Assembly (NCBI RefSeq): GCF_006345805.1
Contig: NC_042999.1
Coordinates: forward strand, 9,114,001 to 9,178,000
DNA: 64,000 nucleotides
From: Octopus sinensis
Lineage: Eukaryota
Direction: 5' to 3'
The notes under the pieces are model-generated. The model ran no database searches. It was not told the origin of the DNA and saw only the letters and a program-made list of their open reading frames with translations. The position numbers and the translations under genes are program-made. Of the stretch, positions 2,396-61,180 are shown in pieces (position 1 is the first letter of the stretch; each line of letters starts with the position of its first letter).

Positions 2396-2631
2396 TGTTG
2401 ATTCGCTAGCTTCTGCACGCATTTTTTTTCTCTCCGTGTTTCTTTTCTGTGTATCTTTCTGTTGAAGAGCGTAGGCTCGAAACGTAAAAGACTTTTTCTA
2501 TTTCTATTCCTGAGCGCCATACTAATACATTTGTTTGTTTGTACTCCACCTGCCTTCGTCTTTTGTTTATTTTCATAAAGCTTCCCGTTATATATATATA
2601 TATATATATATATATATATATATATATATAT
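2396..2631 (+). mobile_element. ~200-bp hammerhead-bearing repeat (family H1) ending in (TA)n
   Basis: Homologous to 13077-13265(-), 32335-32540(-) and 60979-61180(+). Contains tcttt-CTGTTGA-a-gagc gtag gctc-GAAA-cg-TA-aaaga. Confidence 0.7.
2454..2491 (+). ncRNA. Minimal type-I hammerhead ribozyme-like motif (A6U core variant)
   Basis: Stem I TCTTT/AAAGA, core CTGTTGA, stem II GAGC/GCTC, GAAA, self-complementary ACGT stem III, GUA site. Confidence 0.55.
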
Positions 2632-3327
2632 ACATACGTGTGTGTGTGTCGTGGGTGTAGAATGCTTGAAGTGATATAGAGATATTGTATACTATGAAAA
2701 TGGGTGGCAATCAGGATTTTCGATAATTGTATATTGATTACGGGCAGAAGTAGTGGGTGAGCATCGTAGGCATGTGTTGAGAGGAATTCGTTGCGATTTT
2801 GATAATTCACCTCTGGAAACTCTTTCGTTCGTTATCATTCTTCATCCTCGCTCGATGACGGAGTGGTAATACTGGAAACCAATGGCGCAATCAAGACGAA
2901 ATTGGAAGTGCATTGTGAACGGCGGTGTATAACTGCATCTGATGCTCTTGTCGATACTTTGATACAGCGATTTATATACATATTTACAAATACATATATG
3001 TGTATTATGCAAGTATATATGTCTGTATGTATGTAATATATAAGTATATATATGTATGGGCGTGTATGTGTATGTGCGTATTTGTGCGCGCACGTGACAG
3101 AGAAAGAGAGTATATGCATATATGTGTTCGTCAAATAGTGAACCGAGTTGCGTCTTTTTCATCAACCTATTTTTAACCATTCGATAAAAAATTATCGATG
3201 TATTAATACGAGGCTTAAGTCCTCTGATCAATATGATTGACAAATCCCTTGAAGACAATACCCCCAGCACGTACCTGAGTTCAATGAAACTACAACTACA
3301 AATAAAGTAAAATGAATTTATGCATAT

Positions 3328-3750
3328 GTAGTGGCTGTGTGGTAAGTAGCTTGCTAAACAACCACATGGTTCCGGGTTCTGTCCCACTGCGTGGCATCTT
3401 GGGCAAGTGTCTTCTGCCATAGCCCCGGTTTGACCAGTGCCTTGTGAGTGGATTTGGCAGACGGAAACTGAAAGAAGCCTGTCCTATATATGTATATATA
3501 TATATATATATATATATATATATATATATATATATATGCGTGTGTGTGTTTGTGTGTCTGTGTTTGTCCCCCTAGCATTGCTTGACTACCGATGCTGGTG
3601 TGTTTATGTCCCCGTCACTTAGCGGTTCGGCAAAAGAGACCGATAGAATAAGTACTGGGCTTACAAAAGAATAAGTCCCGGGGTCGAGTTGCTCGATTAA
3701 AGGCGGTGCTCCAGCATGGCCGCAGTCAAATGACTGAAACAAGTAAAAGA
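3328..3750 (+). mobile_element. SINE family A (tRNA-like head, CORE-like cttgggcaagt, internal TA/TG microsatellite)
   Basis: Near-identical to copies at 5487, 10346, 13752, 48548 and 61769. Confidence 0.85.
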
Positions 3751-5486
3751 GAAAAGAGAGAAAGAGAGTATGCAAAACACACACACACACATTCCTATCT
3801 CTATTATTTTGTACTTCGTTCTCCACAGTTTCTTTAATTTCTCTCAAAATCGTCTTTTTCTTTTTCATTCTTTACATATAGAAATGCGCTTGTGCATGTC
3901 ACATGCATACACATTTACTTGCAAACACATACATACAAACACACATAACCTCACACTCACACCCACATATATATATATATATAGAGAGAGAGAGAGAGAG
4001 GAAGATATAGAGTGTTACTCTGGTGCTGTTGGCTTATACAGCTTTATTAAATGTCTACTGGAAAACTAAAGAATGCCAGACTATGATAATGAAGCATTAC
4101 TGTGTATCCATAGTAACCAGAAAATTGCTAAGCTTCTTGTTTCTATCTGCATTGTCACTAGCATTTGGAATATCTTCTCATTTGTTCGCAGATTTCATGA
4201 TAACAAAAAAATGAAGAAATCCTTGTTGCTCTCTTTCTTATTAATTACTATTATCACGATTGTATTTCATTTCTTTCGGAATATTAGTCACGTTAAGCTA
4301 AAATATACAACAATTGTAATCTTTTTTTTTTTTTTGTCATATTAATCTGCTTCATCTCTCTGTCTCTCTGCCTTTCGTTAATATTGTTATTCGACGTGTT
4401 TGTTCGCTCAGAATTGCTTTTTCACTATTTACATCAAACAACAACTGACAGATATAGTGATTTAATTTCATTTTGACAATTACAAGAGAAAACGGTCTAT
4501 AAAGAGAAGTTCATTAAATATTAATAGAGCAATTCATATCATTTCGCTTACTAAACCCTGCGACACACGAATTCTTATCATAAATTGTAGTCATAATAGT
4601 ACTTAGCTTTATCAAACTACTTGAAGAGAAAACGTTCTTTAGGTAAATAAGGAAACTCTTCAAGGACTCAAAATGGCATTTGGAAGCAATTTCTTAATTT
4701 CGCTTAACACGAAACACATGGAATAAGCATAAATTTTGCATGTCTACCAAGGCTGTTCCTATCAAAGTTAACATTTACAGATGAAGCGTACGTACTCCCA
4801 GCAGTTAACAAAGCTAATACAAGGCATTAATAAACGCCATCGAAACACACACCACCATTGAATATAAATTTATAAACGATTTGCGAAGAGTCTATTAACT
4901 TATCCAGCCATTTGCAATATTCAGTCACGCGTGACAATTATATTTTCATGAATGTAGAGCGGTGAATTAATGAGTAAATATATTATTATCGGTAAATCAT
5001 TATTACGCCATCATGCATATGATATAGATTAGATAATGTAAAATATGATGGTTATATATTTTCTGGGGGCGTTTATTACTTACTCTGGAACTAAAATTGT
5101 CACTGTTTCAGTTTCCCAAGATTTTAATTCTACATTTGAACACACGTCATTAGTAACAACCATAATGTAATGCCAAAAAATGTTGCTGTTAATAGTCAGC
5201 TGACCTATTAGAATAATCAGCTAAATGCATTCAAAGCTACAAGCTTAAGAAGAACATATGTTGGTAATATAGTCTTAAAAATACACAAAGATGGCATCGT
5301 CATTGCCGGATTGTCTTTGCGTATAGCTCAGTCTATTCAGAGCTTAGTTACAGATAAACAAAATTATAATGATAATAATAATTTTGGATATGAACCCCTC
5401 CCACACACACACACACACACATACATACATATACATATATACATACGTATGTGTGTGGGGGTGTAGAATGTTTGAAATGATGTACA

Positions 5487-58387: not shown

Positions 58388-58580
58388 ATTCTAGTTGGTC
58401 CCCTCCTGCAAGGTCATGCACTGTTTATCTTCTTGATACGAAATCACGATGTCGCACACATATGGCTGTGATGCATGTGCCTGGTGTACCCTTATGAGAC
58501 GGGTAATCATGATGGATATATTGCGCTTCGTATATTTGTACCCCAGTGTCACTTTGATGGCATGCGTTGTCCTCTCACTC
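58388..58580 (+). mobile_element. Family D 3' fragment
   Basis: Matches 35073-35262. Confidence 0.75.
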
Positions 58581-59668
58581 AAAAAGTGAATGCGGAATCC
58601 AGGATTATGATACTCTAAAGGTGAGTAGAATCAAAGAATTAAAAGCCACAGATCTCAGTATAGACTACCGATTGTGCCTCCCAAAAATTAAAAATGATAA
58701 TAAGATTGCATTTATAATAAATAGCATGAACCTGGCTGTCAGAAAACTAATAGCCACTGAAACAAATGTCAGTATGACCAGGTTAAATTATATAACATAT
58801 GCAGCAGCCTCTGTCGTCACAAAAGAAACTGGATACCCCCTTCAGACCCACCCAAACAAGAGTGCCACCACCCAAACAAGAGTGCCACCACCCAAACAAG
58901 AGTGCCACCACCCAAAGAAACTGTGGATAAATAATATCCAGAAAAAAAAGAAAAGAAAAGAAAGGATCTATCAACCCTTAATGAAATTATTATTAGGCAG
59001 AAAACACTACTAAGCAAAAAGAAGACAAAAAATATACGCCAAAGCACAAAGAATATGCAGCAGGTAGGAGAAACGCCAACGATTCTTTGAACAAAAGAAA
59101 CAGTTCAACCCCAATCCAAAAATATTATACTTGTCGAAAATGAAATAGAGACCAATGCAATGCTAACAGGAGAAGTGGAAAATTTTTGGAACGAGTTTGG
59201 TCGGTGAAGGAACAACTTCAGAACAGTTCTATCGAAATAACAAACATAACACCTGAACAACTCTGGACTCCTACAGCAACAGAAGTCACCCAGGCACTGC
59301 AAGAACTTAGTAACTGAAGGCACCCAGGCATGACACAATCCCCAATTTCTGGGTAAAATATTTAACAGGAATACCTAAGACGCTGACTAAGAAATTCAAT
59401 GAGATACTATCAGAGCCAGACATAACGCCTGGAGGGTTCACAGAAGGGAAAACTATCCTAATTCTCAAATCCACAGAAACAGCAAACCCACAAAACTACA
59501 GACCCATAACTTGTCTTCCTACAATTTACGAAGTCGTAACTGTTATAATATCGCAAGGAATGGGCAAACAACTGGAAGACCTGTTTCCAGAAGAGCAGCA
59601 GGGATGCTGAAAGCGCTCATACAGATGCACAGATCAGTTAATCATCAATAAAGTCATAACTAAAGACA
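58581..59668 (+). mobile_element. N-terminal/RT-start fragment of a second R4/Dong-type element
   Basis: LNYITYAAA, P...W, IPNFWVKYL, GKTILI.K, NYRPITCLPTIY, FPEEQQGC, DQLIINK, with frameshifts. Confidence 0.75.
58848..58916. repeat. 20-bp tandem repeat, ~3.4 copies
   Basis: Unit ccacccaaacaagagtgcca. Confidence 0.95.
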
Positions 59669-60978
59669 TCCTTTCTGCTATAGGCACATGGGGAGGGTAT
59701 TGCCCGATTGCAGTGACCCGAATCTTCAAGTTGTAGTTATTTTATCGACCCCAAAATCTTGCGCAGTATTGAAATCACTTTATAACGACATCAGCTATAA
59801 AACCAGAAGAACAACGGAGTCTGAGACGACTAGGGACCAACTGCACCTCCGATTATTTTGCATAAGAATTTAGAAGGAAGGTCTGAAAGAGAACTCGAAG
59901 TTCTTGTCTCATACATAAAACATCCGGGACCTTAAAAGTCTGCAAGATCTTCTTAAGTTTTAAAGTACGATGGTTAAAACATGATGCGTTCCTTCACAAC
60001 CTTCAACCAAGTACGTGGGCGGTCGAAATTTACTCTCAATTAATAAAAAGAAAGCGTATATATTTACACACAAACACACCCACACACACATACTTACATA
60101 CACTCATACATACATACACACATACATACATACATGCACACATACATACATACATACATACATACATACATACATACATACATACATACATACATACATA
60201 CATACATACATACATACATTCATATGTATGTATTCGTAATTTGAGCGTGAGTGTATGTACATATTTAAAGAGATATAAACACACTTATTTGCTGATATAT
60301 TTCTCATTCTAACATTTCTAATGTAAGTATTTAATTCGTGCAACATAGAATACCTCCGAGCCATGTTCAACTAATAAGTAGTTGAGAAGATGCCCATATT
60401 TTCTCTCTAATATATTTATTTATTGGCCAATAAAAATATCAGAATAAACTCATAAAGAAATTACCCCCAGGTCACATATTTTATGTATTCTATGTTGCCT
60501 CCTATTAACAACACAGCAGCAAACTTACAACGTCTTAAATTATAGCTGGGTTTTATTTTTTATAAAATCTCTCTAATTTTGGTGAAAAAGATTTAACGAT
60601 AATTCCCAAAATTTAACAATTCAAATTTCATCTATTTATGGTGATAATATATATATATACATATTTATATATATGTTACGATGGACATTTTTCTGTTTGT
60701 TGTGTTGGTTCCAGGTGCATTTTGAGTTTTATATACTTAAACATAAATTGAAGAATAAGTATTTCAAAGAAACAACTTCAAATTAGGAAATGCCCTCAGG
60801 TATCAACAGAGATTGGATTCCAGTCGTTGTTTTACAAGAGAGATTCTGGTTTTGATTAATATTTTTTTCTATTCCAACTAATGCAGAAAAATTTATGATG
60901 CAAAAATAAATGTTCATATTGTGTGTGTATATGTATATTATATATATATATATATATATATATATATATATATATATC

Positions 60979-61180
60979 ATGGTAGATCGTTAGCCACTAA
61001 ACACATTTATTTCTCTCCTTGTTTCTCTACCTGTTTTTTTCTGTGTCCCTTTCTGTAGAAAAGCGTAGGCTCGAAACGTAAAAGACTTTTTCTATTCCTG
61101 AGCGTTATATTAATACATCTGTTTGTTTTATACATCACCTTTATACGTCTTTTGTTTTTTTTTCATAAACTCTCCCTATA
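60979..61180 (+). mobile_element. Hammerhead-bearing repeat family H1 inside a (TA)n tract
   Basis: cttt-CTGTAGA-a-aagcgtaggctc-GAAACGTA-aaag, with TA repeats on both sides. Confidence 0.7.

What the first reader, a model, noticed from the sequence alone, without database searches (positions are those of the whole stretch)
2396..61180. (TA)n-associated ~200-bp repeat family with a shared non-canonical hammerhead core
Seen: four copies (2396+, 13077-, 32335-, 60979+) share (T)CTTT-[C/A]TGT(A/T)GA-A-GAGC GTAG GCTC-GAAACGTA-AAAG(A), with single-base decay in some copies. Stem I, stem II, GAAA and the palindromic ACGT are in hammerhead order. All four have U instead of the conserved A6 of CUGANGA. 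Every copy abuts a (TA)n tract, and none has an ORF or tRNA head. Inference: a Penelope-mobilised solo pLTR or retrozyme-like element that spread with a variant core. It may be an undescribed natural hammerhead variant or may have lost cleavage while staying mobile.
Basis: partly seen in the sequence, partly recalled or inferred. Interest (0 to 1): 0.72.

Follow-up and report, generated by a model that had tools for sequence, protein, structure and literature searches.

The report
Penelope retroelement tails, hammerhead with U6
The four ~200-base repeats are cut-short tail ends of a very abundant Penelope-type jumping gene that lands in TA repeats, and they carry that element's small hammerhead-shaped RNA motif with one normally fixed core letter (A6) replaced by U in the whole family, so the motif likely cuts very slowly or not at all, which is untested.

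Summary
Four copies of a 189-207 bp repeat lie at 2394-2589(+), 13076-13264(-), 32334-32540(-) and 60978-61177(+). Each abuts a (TA)n run and shares the 38-nt motif.

The repeat is the 3' end of a Penelope-like element (PLE). [quoted passage not shown] It has a ~790-bp pseudo-LTR and thousands of genomic copies. This is the Neptune/Nematis type, not Hydra.

The motif has every feature of the minimal hammerheads of PLE pseudo-LTRs except A6:
- a 4-5 bp helix I;
- an extra base after A9;
- G10.1-C11.1;
- GAAA;
- a palindromic ACGU with no helix III loop;
- H17.

U6 is fixed: 14,893 exact genomic matches against 172 with A6, which is no more than decay would give.

Subfamilies whose flanks differ by ~30% share the core and differ only at N7, H17 and the outermost helix I pair. 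The same holds in contigs from four organism labels. This indicates selection on the RNA motif.

Cleavage could not be tested. There is no covariation within the family because the stems never vary.

Earlier notes of this scan report the same A6U family on other DNA (seven notes). This is a new variant of a known kind.

The parts
2394..2589 (+). Copy 1: 5'-cut 3' tail of the PLE (196 nt), subfamily A (N7=U, H17=A)
   Evidence: 100% query for 40 scored genomic copies at 95-100% identity
2454..2491 (+). Hammerhead-like motif of copy 1: helix I 2454-2458/2487-2491, C3-A9 2459-2465 (U6=2462, N7=2463), extra A 2466, helix II 2467-2470/2475-2478, G12-A14 2479-2481, ACGU 2482-2485, H17 2486
2589..2632 (.). 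(TA)n run at the 3' end of copy 1 (target microsatellite / tail)
13076..13264 (-). Copy 2 (189 nt), subfamily B (N7=A); core C3>A
13165..13202 (-). Hammerhead-like motif of copy 2
13013..13075 (.). (TA)n at the 3' end of copy 2
32334..32540 (-). Copy 3 (207 nt), subfamily A1 (H17=U), three decay changes in the motif
32433..32470 (-). Hammerhead-like motif of copy 3 (decayed: stem II GUGC, ACAU)
32321..32334 (.). Short (TA)n at the 3' end of copy 3
60978..61177 (+). Copy 4 (200 nt), subfamily B (N7=A), stem II G10.1>A
61048..61085 (+). Hammerhead-like motif of copy 4
60939..60976 (.). (TA)n directly 5' of copy 4; a further TA run 61177-61186 follows its 3' end, so the copy sits inside a TA microsatellite

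Best explanation
The four repeats are 5'-cut tail copies of a very abundant Penelope-like retrotransposon that inserts at (TA)n, and they carry its pseudo-LTR minimal hammerhead motif with U in place of A6 throughout the family; this motif is likely kept by selection on the RNA and is predicted to be a strongly slowed self-cutter that would need pairing of two copies or cofactors, which is untested.

Shown here:
- The repeat is the last ~200 nt of an element that encodes RT, a CX4CxxC linker and GIY-YIG, with a ~790-bp direct repeat (pseudo-LTR).
- Copies end in (TA)n and often lie inside microsatellites.
- The motif lies ~100 nt from the 3' end.
- U6 is the family state.
- Subfamilies differ in the core only at N7 and H17.

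Inferred:
- The element's endonuclease nicks TA repeats and its RT copies the RNA from the 3' end. Copying often stops ~215-225 nt in, which gives the short copies.
- In transcripts that hold two pseudo-LTRs, the two motifs would pair through the palindromic ACGU to form helix III, and would cleave after GUA/GUU.
- U6 would lower the rate. This may suit an element whose 3' end must stay attached to the RNA.
For: PLE identity:
- Longer copies lead into 'NIIYCISCSLC.SLYIGQTGRRLADRFAEHLRDI' (GIY-YIG with the two inner cysteines), the linker 'CSRPRCRTC', and RT motifs 'KPADKGG' and 'RYIDDI'.
- Pfam RVT_1 scores 32 bits against a cutoff of 29.6.
- Open frames reach 1009 and 975 aa.
- Direct repeat L044 1091-1868 = 5595-6377 at 96% identity, and likewise in L045.
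- The protein search gave 19,233 candidates; all 142 scored had E<=7e-134.

Target and ends (by eye):
- 30 of 30 sampled copies run into a TA-type microsatellite at the 3' end (one into (ACAT)n).
- About 20 of 30 have a microsatellite directly 5'.
- 18 of 30 start within the 8 nt 'TCGCCATG'.

Motif: it meets all the min-HHR features listed by Cervera and de la Pena 2014 (PMC4209133, main text read) except A6.

U6 is fixed:
- 14,893 exact genomic matches to CTGTNGAAGAGCGTAGGCTCGAAAC against 172 with A6.
- 0 of 100 listed copies anchored outside the motif have A6.
- In the older 'TTCCTTT' class, position 6 in the first 100 of 2,658 is T 91, C 6, A 2, G 1.
- 28 of 28 copies not chosen through the motif have T.

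Constraint:
- N7 among the first 100 U6 matches is U 49, A 24, C 15, G 12.
- Subfamily majorities differ at 20/72 upstream and 42/115 downstream columns, but at only 3/38 in the motif: position 2.5, N7 and H17.
- In contigs of four organism labels, the only alternative letters reaching 5% of depth between 2455 and 2494 are at 2463 (N7), 2486 (H17) and 2471 (loop 2).
- In those contigs, depth peaks at 2459-2493, and hundreds of contigs diverge just before 2455 and after 2495/2498.

Comparator: another family's canonical CUGAUGA min-hammerhead sits in the same window at ~26950. It has the same layout (extra A, GAAACGU, H17=U) but different stems.
Against: - No cleavage data could be obtained. 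All runs offered are assembled contigs, which cannot show RNA ends.
- A6 is one of the invariant core bases. Changes there give low activity (Perreault et al. 2011, PMC3088659 section 8, citing the classical mutagenesis). PLE min-hammerheads with a normal core are already poor cutters in vitro (PMC4209133).
- No Rfam hammerhead model matches, even at E<=10.
- The stems are invariant within the family, so there is no covariation.
- No held copy starts at the predicted cleavage site: 0 of 107 tail hits, most of which were chosen through the motif, and 0 of 29 others.
- With U6, the lowest-energy fold adds a competing helix, U4G5U6U7 with A14-G16.2.
- The core counts are partly fixed by how the loci were chosen.
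Confidence: 0.42

Rival explanations
1. The motif descends from a PLE hammerhead but no longer cuts. Its fold is kept because it serves another step, for example recognition of the RNA 3' region by the element's RT/EN, or pairing of two RNAs through the ACGU palindrome.
For: The conservation pattern is the same as for the main reading, and it cannot tell catalysis from fold recognition. A6 changes are strongly deleterious (PMC3088659 section 8). The family spread to many thousands of copies with U6. Craig et al. 2021 (PMC8557442, passages read) note that PLE clades without canonical hammerheads proliferate very well and that the function of the motif is unclear. All genomic copies keep the motif internal, ~100 nt from the 3' end, so the copied RNAs were not cut there.
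Against: Every other catalytic base (C3, U4, G5, G8, A9, G12-A14, A15.1-U16.1) is kept, and only the two positions that are free in hammerheads vary. Catalysis predicts exactly this pattern, while a protein site need not follow it. A natural A6C hammerhead still cuts, well with Mn2+ (PMC7151607, passages read).
Confidence: 0.35
2. The motif is a dead relic. A6U inactivated the hammerhead in an ancestor, and the sequence looks conserved only because all copies are young descendants of a few master copies.
For: Copies of the main subfamily are 95-100% alike. The stems show no covariation. Part of the apparent core identity comes from how the loci were selected.
Against: Subfamilies whose flanks differ by roughly 28-37% keep the 38-nt block, apart from N7, H17 and position 2.5. 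Contigs from four organism labels align in the block but diverge on both sides of it (tables 2 and 7). Exact-core copies are the bulk of the older class too (2,658 matches).
Confidence: 0.1
3. The block is not hammerhead-related at all. It is a conserved DNA or RNA signal of the pseudo-LTR (promoter element or protein site) that resembles a hammerhead by chance.
For: No Rfam hammerhead hit. One invariant core base is wrong. The tail as a whole is not unusually structured (z = +1.1).
Against: The descriptor gave 0 hits in 200 shuffles. The motif sits where PLE hammerheads sit and has the extra base after A9, G10.1-C11.1 and the 15.2-16.2 palindrome that mark PLE min-hammerheads (PMC4209133). 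The variable sites are N7 and H17. A canonical relative with the same layout lies in the same window.
Confidence: 0.08

Closest known systems
Minimal type I hammerheads (min-HHR) in the pseudo-LTRs of metazoan Penelope-like elements (Cervera and de la Pena 2014, PMC4209133, main text read; figures and supplements not seen)
   Same: It lies in the pseudo-LTR near the 3' end and has a short helix I (4-5 bp). It has no helix III loop, with palindromic 15.2-16.2. There is an unpaired base between A9 and 10.1, a G10.1-C11.1 pair, a GAAA box and a GUH site. Most copies are solitary, on truncated elements.
   Different: U replaces A6 in the CUGANGA box in essentially all copies. Helix II is only 4 bp with a GUAG loop, whereas the paper describes mostly longer helices II. 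The family shows very little sequence variation, where the paper stresses high variability.
Canonical C-terminal-endonuclease PLEs with the CX2-5CxxC linker (Neptune / Nematis type; Craig et al. 2021, PMC8557442, passages and section 11 read)
   Same: It has an RT with a DKG motif, a CX4CxxC linker, and a GIY-YIG domain with the two inner cysteines. It also shows a pseudo-LTR from partial tandem copies, 5'-cut copies and insertion into microsatellites.
   Different: The clade was not placed by phylogeny here. There is a long CT-rich low-complexity stretch between the ORF and the tail. The hammerhead core is non-canonical, whereas the paper states that canonical hammerheads are universal in canonical PLEs and Hydra.
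Natural A6C hammerhead of bacteriophage Bcep176 (Perreault et al. 2011, PMC3088659 section 8; PMC7151607, passages read)
   Same: It is a natural hammerhead with a substitution at the same invariant position 6. That variant keeps low activity in Mg2+ and good activity in Mn2+.
   Different: That case is a single bacterial-virus locus, of a different type, with C at position 6. This one is a eukaryotic retroelement family of over 14,000 copies with U. No activity data exist for this one.
Animal non-LTR retrozymes (Cervera and de la Pena 2020, PMC7229834, passages; Li, Clavereau and Pollet 2026, bioRxiv 10.64898/2026.07.22.740005, abstract and outline)
   Same: They are short non-coding hammerhead-bearing repeats related to PLE pseudo-LTRs.
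   Different: Retrozymes are tandem monomers with canonical hammerheads that give circular RNAs. Here the copies are dispersed single tails of the autonomous element itself, with no tandem arrays in the window.
Canonical min-hammerhead of another PLE family in the same window (about 26950-26995, with an inverted partner at about 26845-26890)
   Same: The layout is the same: helix I of 4 bp, a CUGAUGA box position, an extra A, helix II beginning G and ending C, GAAACGU, and H17=U.
   Different: It has A6. Helices I and II have entirely different sequences, and helix II is 6 bp. It sits in a fold-back arrangement.

Membership tests
PLE min-hammerhead (Cervera and de la Pena 2014) | Lies in the pseudo-LTR of an element encoding RT and GIY-YIG endonuclease | tested here: met
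   Motif at L044 ~1729 and ~6237, inside the direct repeat 1091-1868 = 5595-6377 that flanks the 1009-aa RT/EN frame
PLE min-hammerhead (Cervera and de la Pena 2014) | Core box C3 U4 G5 A6 N7 G8 A9 | tested here: not met
   Position 6 is U. 14,893 exact genomic matches with U against 172 with A. 0 of 100 anchored copies have A. The other six positions fit.
PLE min-hammerhead (Cervera and de la Pena 2014) | G12 A13 A14 box, the A15.1-U16.1 pair and a cleavage site H17 that is not G | tested here: met
   GAAA, then ACGU, then A or U
PLE min-hammerhead (Cervera and de la Pena 2014) | Unpaired base between A9 and 10.1; G10.1-C11.1 pair; palindromic 15.2-16.2 with no or a tiny helix III loop; helix I of 4-5 bp | tested here: met
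   A at 2466; G2467-C2478; ACGU at 2482-2485; helix I 2454-2458/2487-2491
PLE min-hammerhead (Cervera and de la Pena 2014) | Compensatory changes in the helices among family members | tested here: inconclusive
   Helices I and II do not vary among subfamilies, so there is nothing for or against. Another family in the window has different helices with the same layout, but homology between the two is not shown.
PLE min-hammerhead (Cervera and de la Pena 2014) | Self-cleavage, as dimers | not testable with these tools
   Only assembled contigs of public runs were offered
Rfam hammerhead families | Match to a curated hammerhead covariance model | tested here: not met
   No hammerhead hit at gathering score in the window, nor at E<=10 on copy 1 or on L031 1-5000
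Canonical C-terminal EN+ PLE, Neptune/Nematis type | RT domain with a DKG motif | tested here: met
   RVT_1 scores 32 bits against a cutoff of 29.6; 'KPADKGG' in the L044 and L045 frames
Canonical C-terminal EN+ PLE, Neptune/Nematis type | C-terminal GIY-YIG with the inner CCHH, preceded by a CX2-5CxxC linker | tested here: met
   'CSRPRCRTC' is followed by 'IIYCISCSLC.SLYIGQTGRRLADRFAEH'. The Pfam GIY-YIG match is only 16.9 bits, below the 22.6 cutoff, so this rests on the motifs read from the sequence.
Canonical C-terminal EN+ PLE, Neptune/Nematis type | Placement in the clade by RT phylogeny | not tested
   No reference PLE proteins were at hand
Hydra clade of PLEs (Craig et al. 2021, section 11) | DKG changed to DKT, no CCHH in the endonuclease, CxCX5C linker, length under 3 kb | tested here: not met
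   DKG is present, the inner cysteines are present and the linker is CX4CxxC. The unit is about 4.5 kb (L044 1870-6377).
Animal non-LTR retrozymes | Tandem arrays of short hammerhead monomers that give circular RNA | tested here: not met
   The four window copies are single and 10-28 kb apart. Circular RNA is not testable here.
tRNA-derived SINE | tRNA-like head with pol III boxes | tested here: not met
   ARAGORN finds no tRNA in the window. The 5' ends of copies continue into the PLE 3' UTR in longer copies.

The most novel reading that the evidence does not exclude
CUGUNGA is a working natural hammerhead core. An A6U ribozyme would then have been selected in octopus Penelope elements as a slow or condition-dependent cutter (for example dimer-, cofactor- or metal-dependent, as A6C is Mn2+-dependent). 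It would have been kept for the whole radiation of a family with over 14,000 copies in several species.
Probability: 0.35. Interest if true: 0.7.

Novelty: new variant of a known kind. Interest (0 to 1): 0.5.

Why it matters
The role of hammerheads in Penelope-like elements is unsettled. They cut poorly in vitro, and whole clades do without them.

This is a hugely successful family in which one invariant catalytic base is replaced, yet the rest of the core is held fixed while the flanks drift. That makes it a natural experiment. If the U6 motif cuts, the accepted hammerhead consensus is too narrow and descriptor searches (CUGANGA) miss a large class. If it does not cut, then PLEs keep the hammerhead fold for something other than cleavage.

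In practice, this family makes up a visible share of an octopus-sized genome. It explains many (TA)n-flanked ~200-bp repeats there.

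Tried and rejected
- Rfam gave no hammerhead family at gathering score in the window, nor at E<=10 on copy 1 or on the degraded full-length locus.
- RNA evidence: no RNA holder is listed for the stretch. All 22 runs offered are assembled contigs, some only guessed to be RNA. Contigs cannot show RNA ends, so cleavage and circles could not be tested. No joint typical of a circle was listed (table 5).
- A6 lineage: copies with CUGANGA exist (172) and at first looked like separate subfamilies. 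In the same sequence class, however, position 6 is T 91, C 6, A 2, G 1 in the first 100 of 2,658. They are therefore decay variants, and I dropped the idea of an ancestral A6 branch.
- Other register: an alternative with U3.G8 and a 2-bp helix II would put the hypervariable site at U4. Rejected.
- 5' ends at the predicted cleavage site: 0 of 107 tail hits (most chosen through the motif, so biased) and 0 of 29 other copies. A genome-wide census of copy starts anchored downstream of the motif was not obtained, so this test remains weak.
- Dimer folding only gave domain-swapped versions of the same helices and says nothing on helix III.
- The fold of the whole tail is not unusual (z = +1.1).
- Papers: Lunse, Weinberg and Breaker 2017 is not held. 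The figures and supplements of Cervera and de la Pena 2014 were not seen, and either may show core variants. Searches for A6U/A6C/A6G with 'hammerhead ribozyme' and for CUGUUGA/CUGUAGA/CUGUCGA/CUGUGGA with 'hammerhead' found no natural A6U hammerhead. The one CUGUAGA hit (PMC4191386) refers to a designed ribozyme's core and looks like a misprint.
- SINE and Hydra-clade readings were tested and not met (see the membership test).

Full report
1. THE OBSERVATION

It occurred in none of 100 shuffles. The four copies align over about 200 nt.

Their limits are 2394-2589(+), 13076-13264(-), 32334-32540(-) and 60978-61177(+). Every copy ends in a TA run, and copy 4 also has one directly 5'. There is no tRNA in the window.

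All four have T at hammerhead position 6. A strict min-hammerhead descriptor with U6 is met in full only by copy 1; copies 2-4 each carry one to three decay changes. It gave no hit in 200 shuffles of the window.

2. WHAT THE REPEAT IS

A 175-nt piece of copy 1 finds at least 40 scored copies at 95-100% identity in the 2.72-Gb own genome, out of 192 candidates. In 30 fetched loci (read by eye):
- all copies run at their 3' end into a TA-type microsatellite (one into (ACAT)n);
- about 20 have a microsatellite directly 5';
- 18 start within the same 8 nt ('TCGCCATG');
- 5 are shorter and 6 are longer.

The longer copies lead upstream through a long CT-rich low-complexity stretch into a reading frame. 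That frame holds 'NIIYCISCSLCHSLYIGQTGRRLADRFAEHLRDI', a GIY-YIG endonuclease motif, followed further upstream by reverse-transcriptase motifs. The first full locus (L031) is broken by frameshifts.

A search with its C-terminal 270 aa found 19,233 candidates. All 142 that were scored had E<=7e-134 and 85-100% identity, some with open frames up to 1009 aa.

Two such loci were fetched:
- L044 has a 1009-aa stop-free frame and L045 one of 975 aa.
- The frames hold 'KPADKGG', 'RYIDDI', the linker 'CSRPRCRTC' (CX4CxxC) and the GIY-YIG with its two inner cysteines.
- Pfam RVT_1 passes its cutoff (32 against 29.6 bits). GIY-YIG is weak (16.9 against 22.6).

In both loci the last ~680-790 nt recur upstream of the frame: L044 1091-1868 = 5595-6377 at 96% identity. 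The upstream copy is joined to the unit's 5' end through a short TA run. That is the pseudo-LTR layout of Penelope-like elements.

By the criteria in Craig et al. 2021 (PMC8557442, passages and section 11 read), the element is a canonical C-terminal-endonuclease PLE of the Neptune/Nematis type: DKG, inner cysteines, CX2-5CxxC linker. It is not Hydra, which has DKT, no CCHH and a CxCX5C linker. It is not Naiad either, which has an N-terminal endonuclease. The same paper ties that linker to microsatellite targeting.

The window's four repeats are therefore 5'-cut tail copies of this element. They are not a SINE and not a tandem retrozyme.

3. THE MOTIF

In copy 1 the parts are:
- helix I: 2454-2458 with 2487-2491 (5 bp);
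- C3-A9: 2459-2465, reading CUGUUGA;
- an unpaired A: 2466;
- helix II: GAGC/GCUC with loop GUAG, 2467-2478;
- GAAA: 2479-2482;
- ACGU: 2482-2485;
- H17: 2486 (A).

Cervera and de la Pena 2014 (PMC4209133, main text read) define the minimal hammerheads of PLE pseudo-LTRs by just these traits. They list a short helix I, no helix III loop, a base between 9 and 10.1, G10.1-C11.1 and a palindromic 15.2-16.2. They propose that two copies pair to form helix III, and they found only low cleavage in vitro. Everything fits except A6.

The lowest-energy fold of the 48-nt piece contains helices I and II. It also contains a competing 4-bp helix, U4G5U6U7 with A14-G16.2. No Rfam hammerhead model matches.

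4. IS U6 THE FAMILY STATE?

Exact genome-wide counts are 14,893 for CTGTNGAAGAGCGTAGGCTCGAAAC and 172 for the same with A6. That is 1.1% of the 15,065.

Anchors placed outside the motif find 12,591 copies, against 3 for the control pattern. Of the first 100 listed, 99 have T at position 6, one has a deletion there and none has A.

A6 copies seemed at first to form groups with their own flanks. But in that same flank class (2,658 copies), the first 100 show T 91, C 6, A 2, G 1 at position 6. This is the spectrum expected from decay, with transitions exceeding transversions.

Among 29 copies that came in without selection through the motif, 28 hold the motif and all 28 have T. These include the tails of the protein-selected full-length loci. 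U6 is fixed in all subfamilies, including the autonomous element.

5. IS THE MOTIF UNDER CONSTRAINT?

Position 7 is U 49, A 24, C 15, G 12 among the first 100 exact U6 matches. In the older class it is G 44, U 24, C 14, A 9 among the 91 U6 copies of the first 100. Position 17 is A or U, depending on the subfamily.

Subfamily majority letters differ at 9-26 of about 70 upstream columns and 14-43 of about 110 downstream columns. Within the 38-nt motif they differ at only 1-3 positions, and always at position 2.5, N7 or H17. One caveat applies: 25-32 of the core positions were fixed by how those loci were found.

An independent check laid contigs of four runs, carrying four organism labels, on copy 1 at a minimum of 85% likeness:
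- Between 2455 and 2494, letters that reach 5% of depth occur only at 2463 (N7, all three alternatives, about half of the depth), 2486 (H17, A>U, about a quarter) and 2471 (first loop base, about 5%).
- No such letter occurs at 2462.
- Depth peaks at 2459-2493, about 2-10 times that of the flanks.
- Hundreds of contigs match only the block and diverge just before 2455 and just after 2495/2498 (tables 2, 3 and 7).

The two positions that vary are thus the two that are free in hammerheads. The block is the best-kept part of the tail across diverged families and several organisms. I read this as selection on the RNA motif. It cannot tell catalysis from recognition of the fold.

A second kept block lies near the 3' end (about 2550-2563).

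6. CONTEXT IN THE SAME DNA

The descriptor run over all 379,387 nt held also finds two other families:
- A canonical CUGAUGA min-hammerhead of another family in the window at ~26950, and its relative in L064. It has the same layout (extra A, GAAACGU, H17=U) but different helices, and it sits in a fold-back with its inverted copy.
- A U3-A8 variant, present twice in L078.

The genome therefore holds normal PLE hammerheads next to this U6 family.

7. WHAT U6 MAY MEAN

- Perreault et al. 2011 (PMC3088659, section 8 read) report a natural A6C hammerhead with low activity. They note that earlier mutagenesis found low activity for changes at this position.
- PMC7151607 (passages read) shows that A6C nearly abolishes cleavage in Mg2+ but leaves good cleavage in Mn2+.
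- I found no natural A6U hammerhead in print. However, Lunse et al. 2017 is not held, and the figures and supplements of the 2014 paper were not seen.
- No held copy starts at the predicted cleavage site (0 of 107; 0 of 29). All copies keep the motif internal, so the RNAs that were copied had not been cut there.

My best reading (0.42) is a strongly slowed, dimer- or cofactor-dependent cutter that is kept by selection. Close behind (0.35) is a hammerhead fold that no longer cuts but is kept for another step. A neutral relic (0.10) or an unrelated signal (0.08) fits the data poorly.

8. EARLIER NOTES OF THIS SCAN

After my own analysis I looked these up. Seven notes, one on another piece of this genome, describe the same A6U family and read it in the same way. 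Others describe many other PLE hammerhead stubs at TA repeats in this genome. They are not independent evidence.

This report adds:
- the link to the autonomous element and its type;
- the whole-genome counts with a decay control;
- the N7/H17-only pattern;
- the limits of the kept block in four organism labels.

9. VERDICT

The 'retrozyme-like' reading is not supported, and activity remains open. This is a new variant of a known kind. Interest is moderate (0.5), because it is a ready natural test of what PLE hammerheads are for.

Noticed in passing
window 26840-27000: A canonical CUGAUGA minimal hammerhead of a different PLE family lies at ~26950-26995 on the + strand. It faces its own inverted copy at ~26845-26890, forming a fold-back with a ~60-nt palindromic centre. 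This is the inverted pseudo-LTR layout known for PLE insertions.
   Followed up: partly
L078 about 419-460 and 1133-1174 (+): Two identical minimal hammerheads have a U3-A8 core pair instead of C3-G8 (UUGAAAA box), an ACGCGU palindrome and H17=C. Cervera and de la Pena described this covariation for Cercyon elements.
   Followed up: no
L044 5400-6060; L031 (minus strand) about 560-1340: A long CT-rich low-complexity stretch lies between the endonuclease and the tail, followed by ACAT/CA-type micro-repeats. In L044 the reading frame runs on into it without a stop.
   Followed up: no
window 32541-32575 (minus strand, just 5' of copy 3); also L019 and L010 flanks: Another dispersed repeat ending in '...GGCAGAAACTGAAA(A/G)AAGCCCGT' lies directly next to copies of this family in three places. 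It seems to be a second element whose end also abuts TA repeats.
   Followed up: no
window 2550-2563 and the same part of the other copies: A second block, 'CCACCTGYCTTCGTCTTTTG', is kept across all subfamilies near the 3' end. It is possibly the part that the reverse transcriptase recognises.
   Followed up: partly
L003, L005, L024, L061, L076/L077: Copies of the family often lie tail-to-tail or head-to-tail within a few hundred bases of each other, joined through TA runs. New copies seem to land in the TA tails of older ones.
   Followed up: partly
L044 1651 / 6161 and the 5' ends of 18 of 30 sampled copies: The short copies share a sharp 5' limit at 'TCGCCATG', ~215-225 nt from the 3' end. 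It may be the transcription start of the pseudo-LTR or a fixed stop of reverse transcription. Not resolved.
   Followed up: partly
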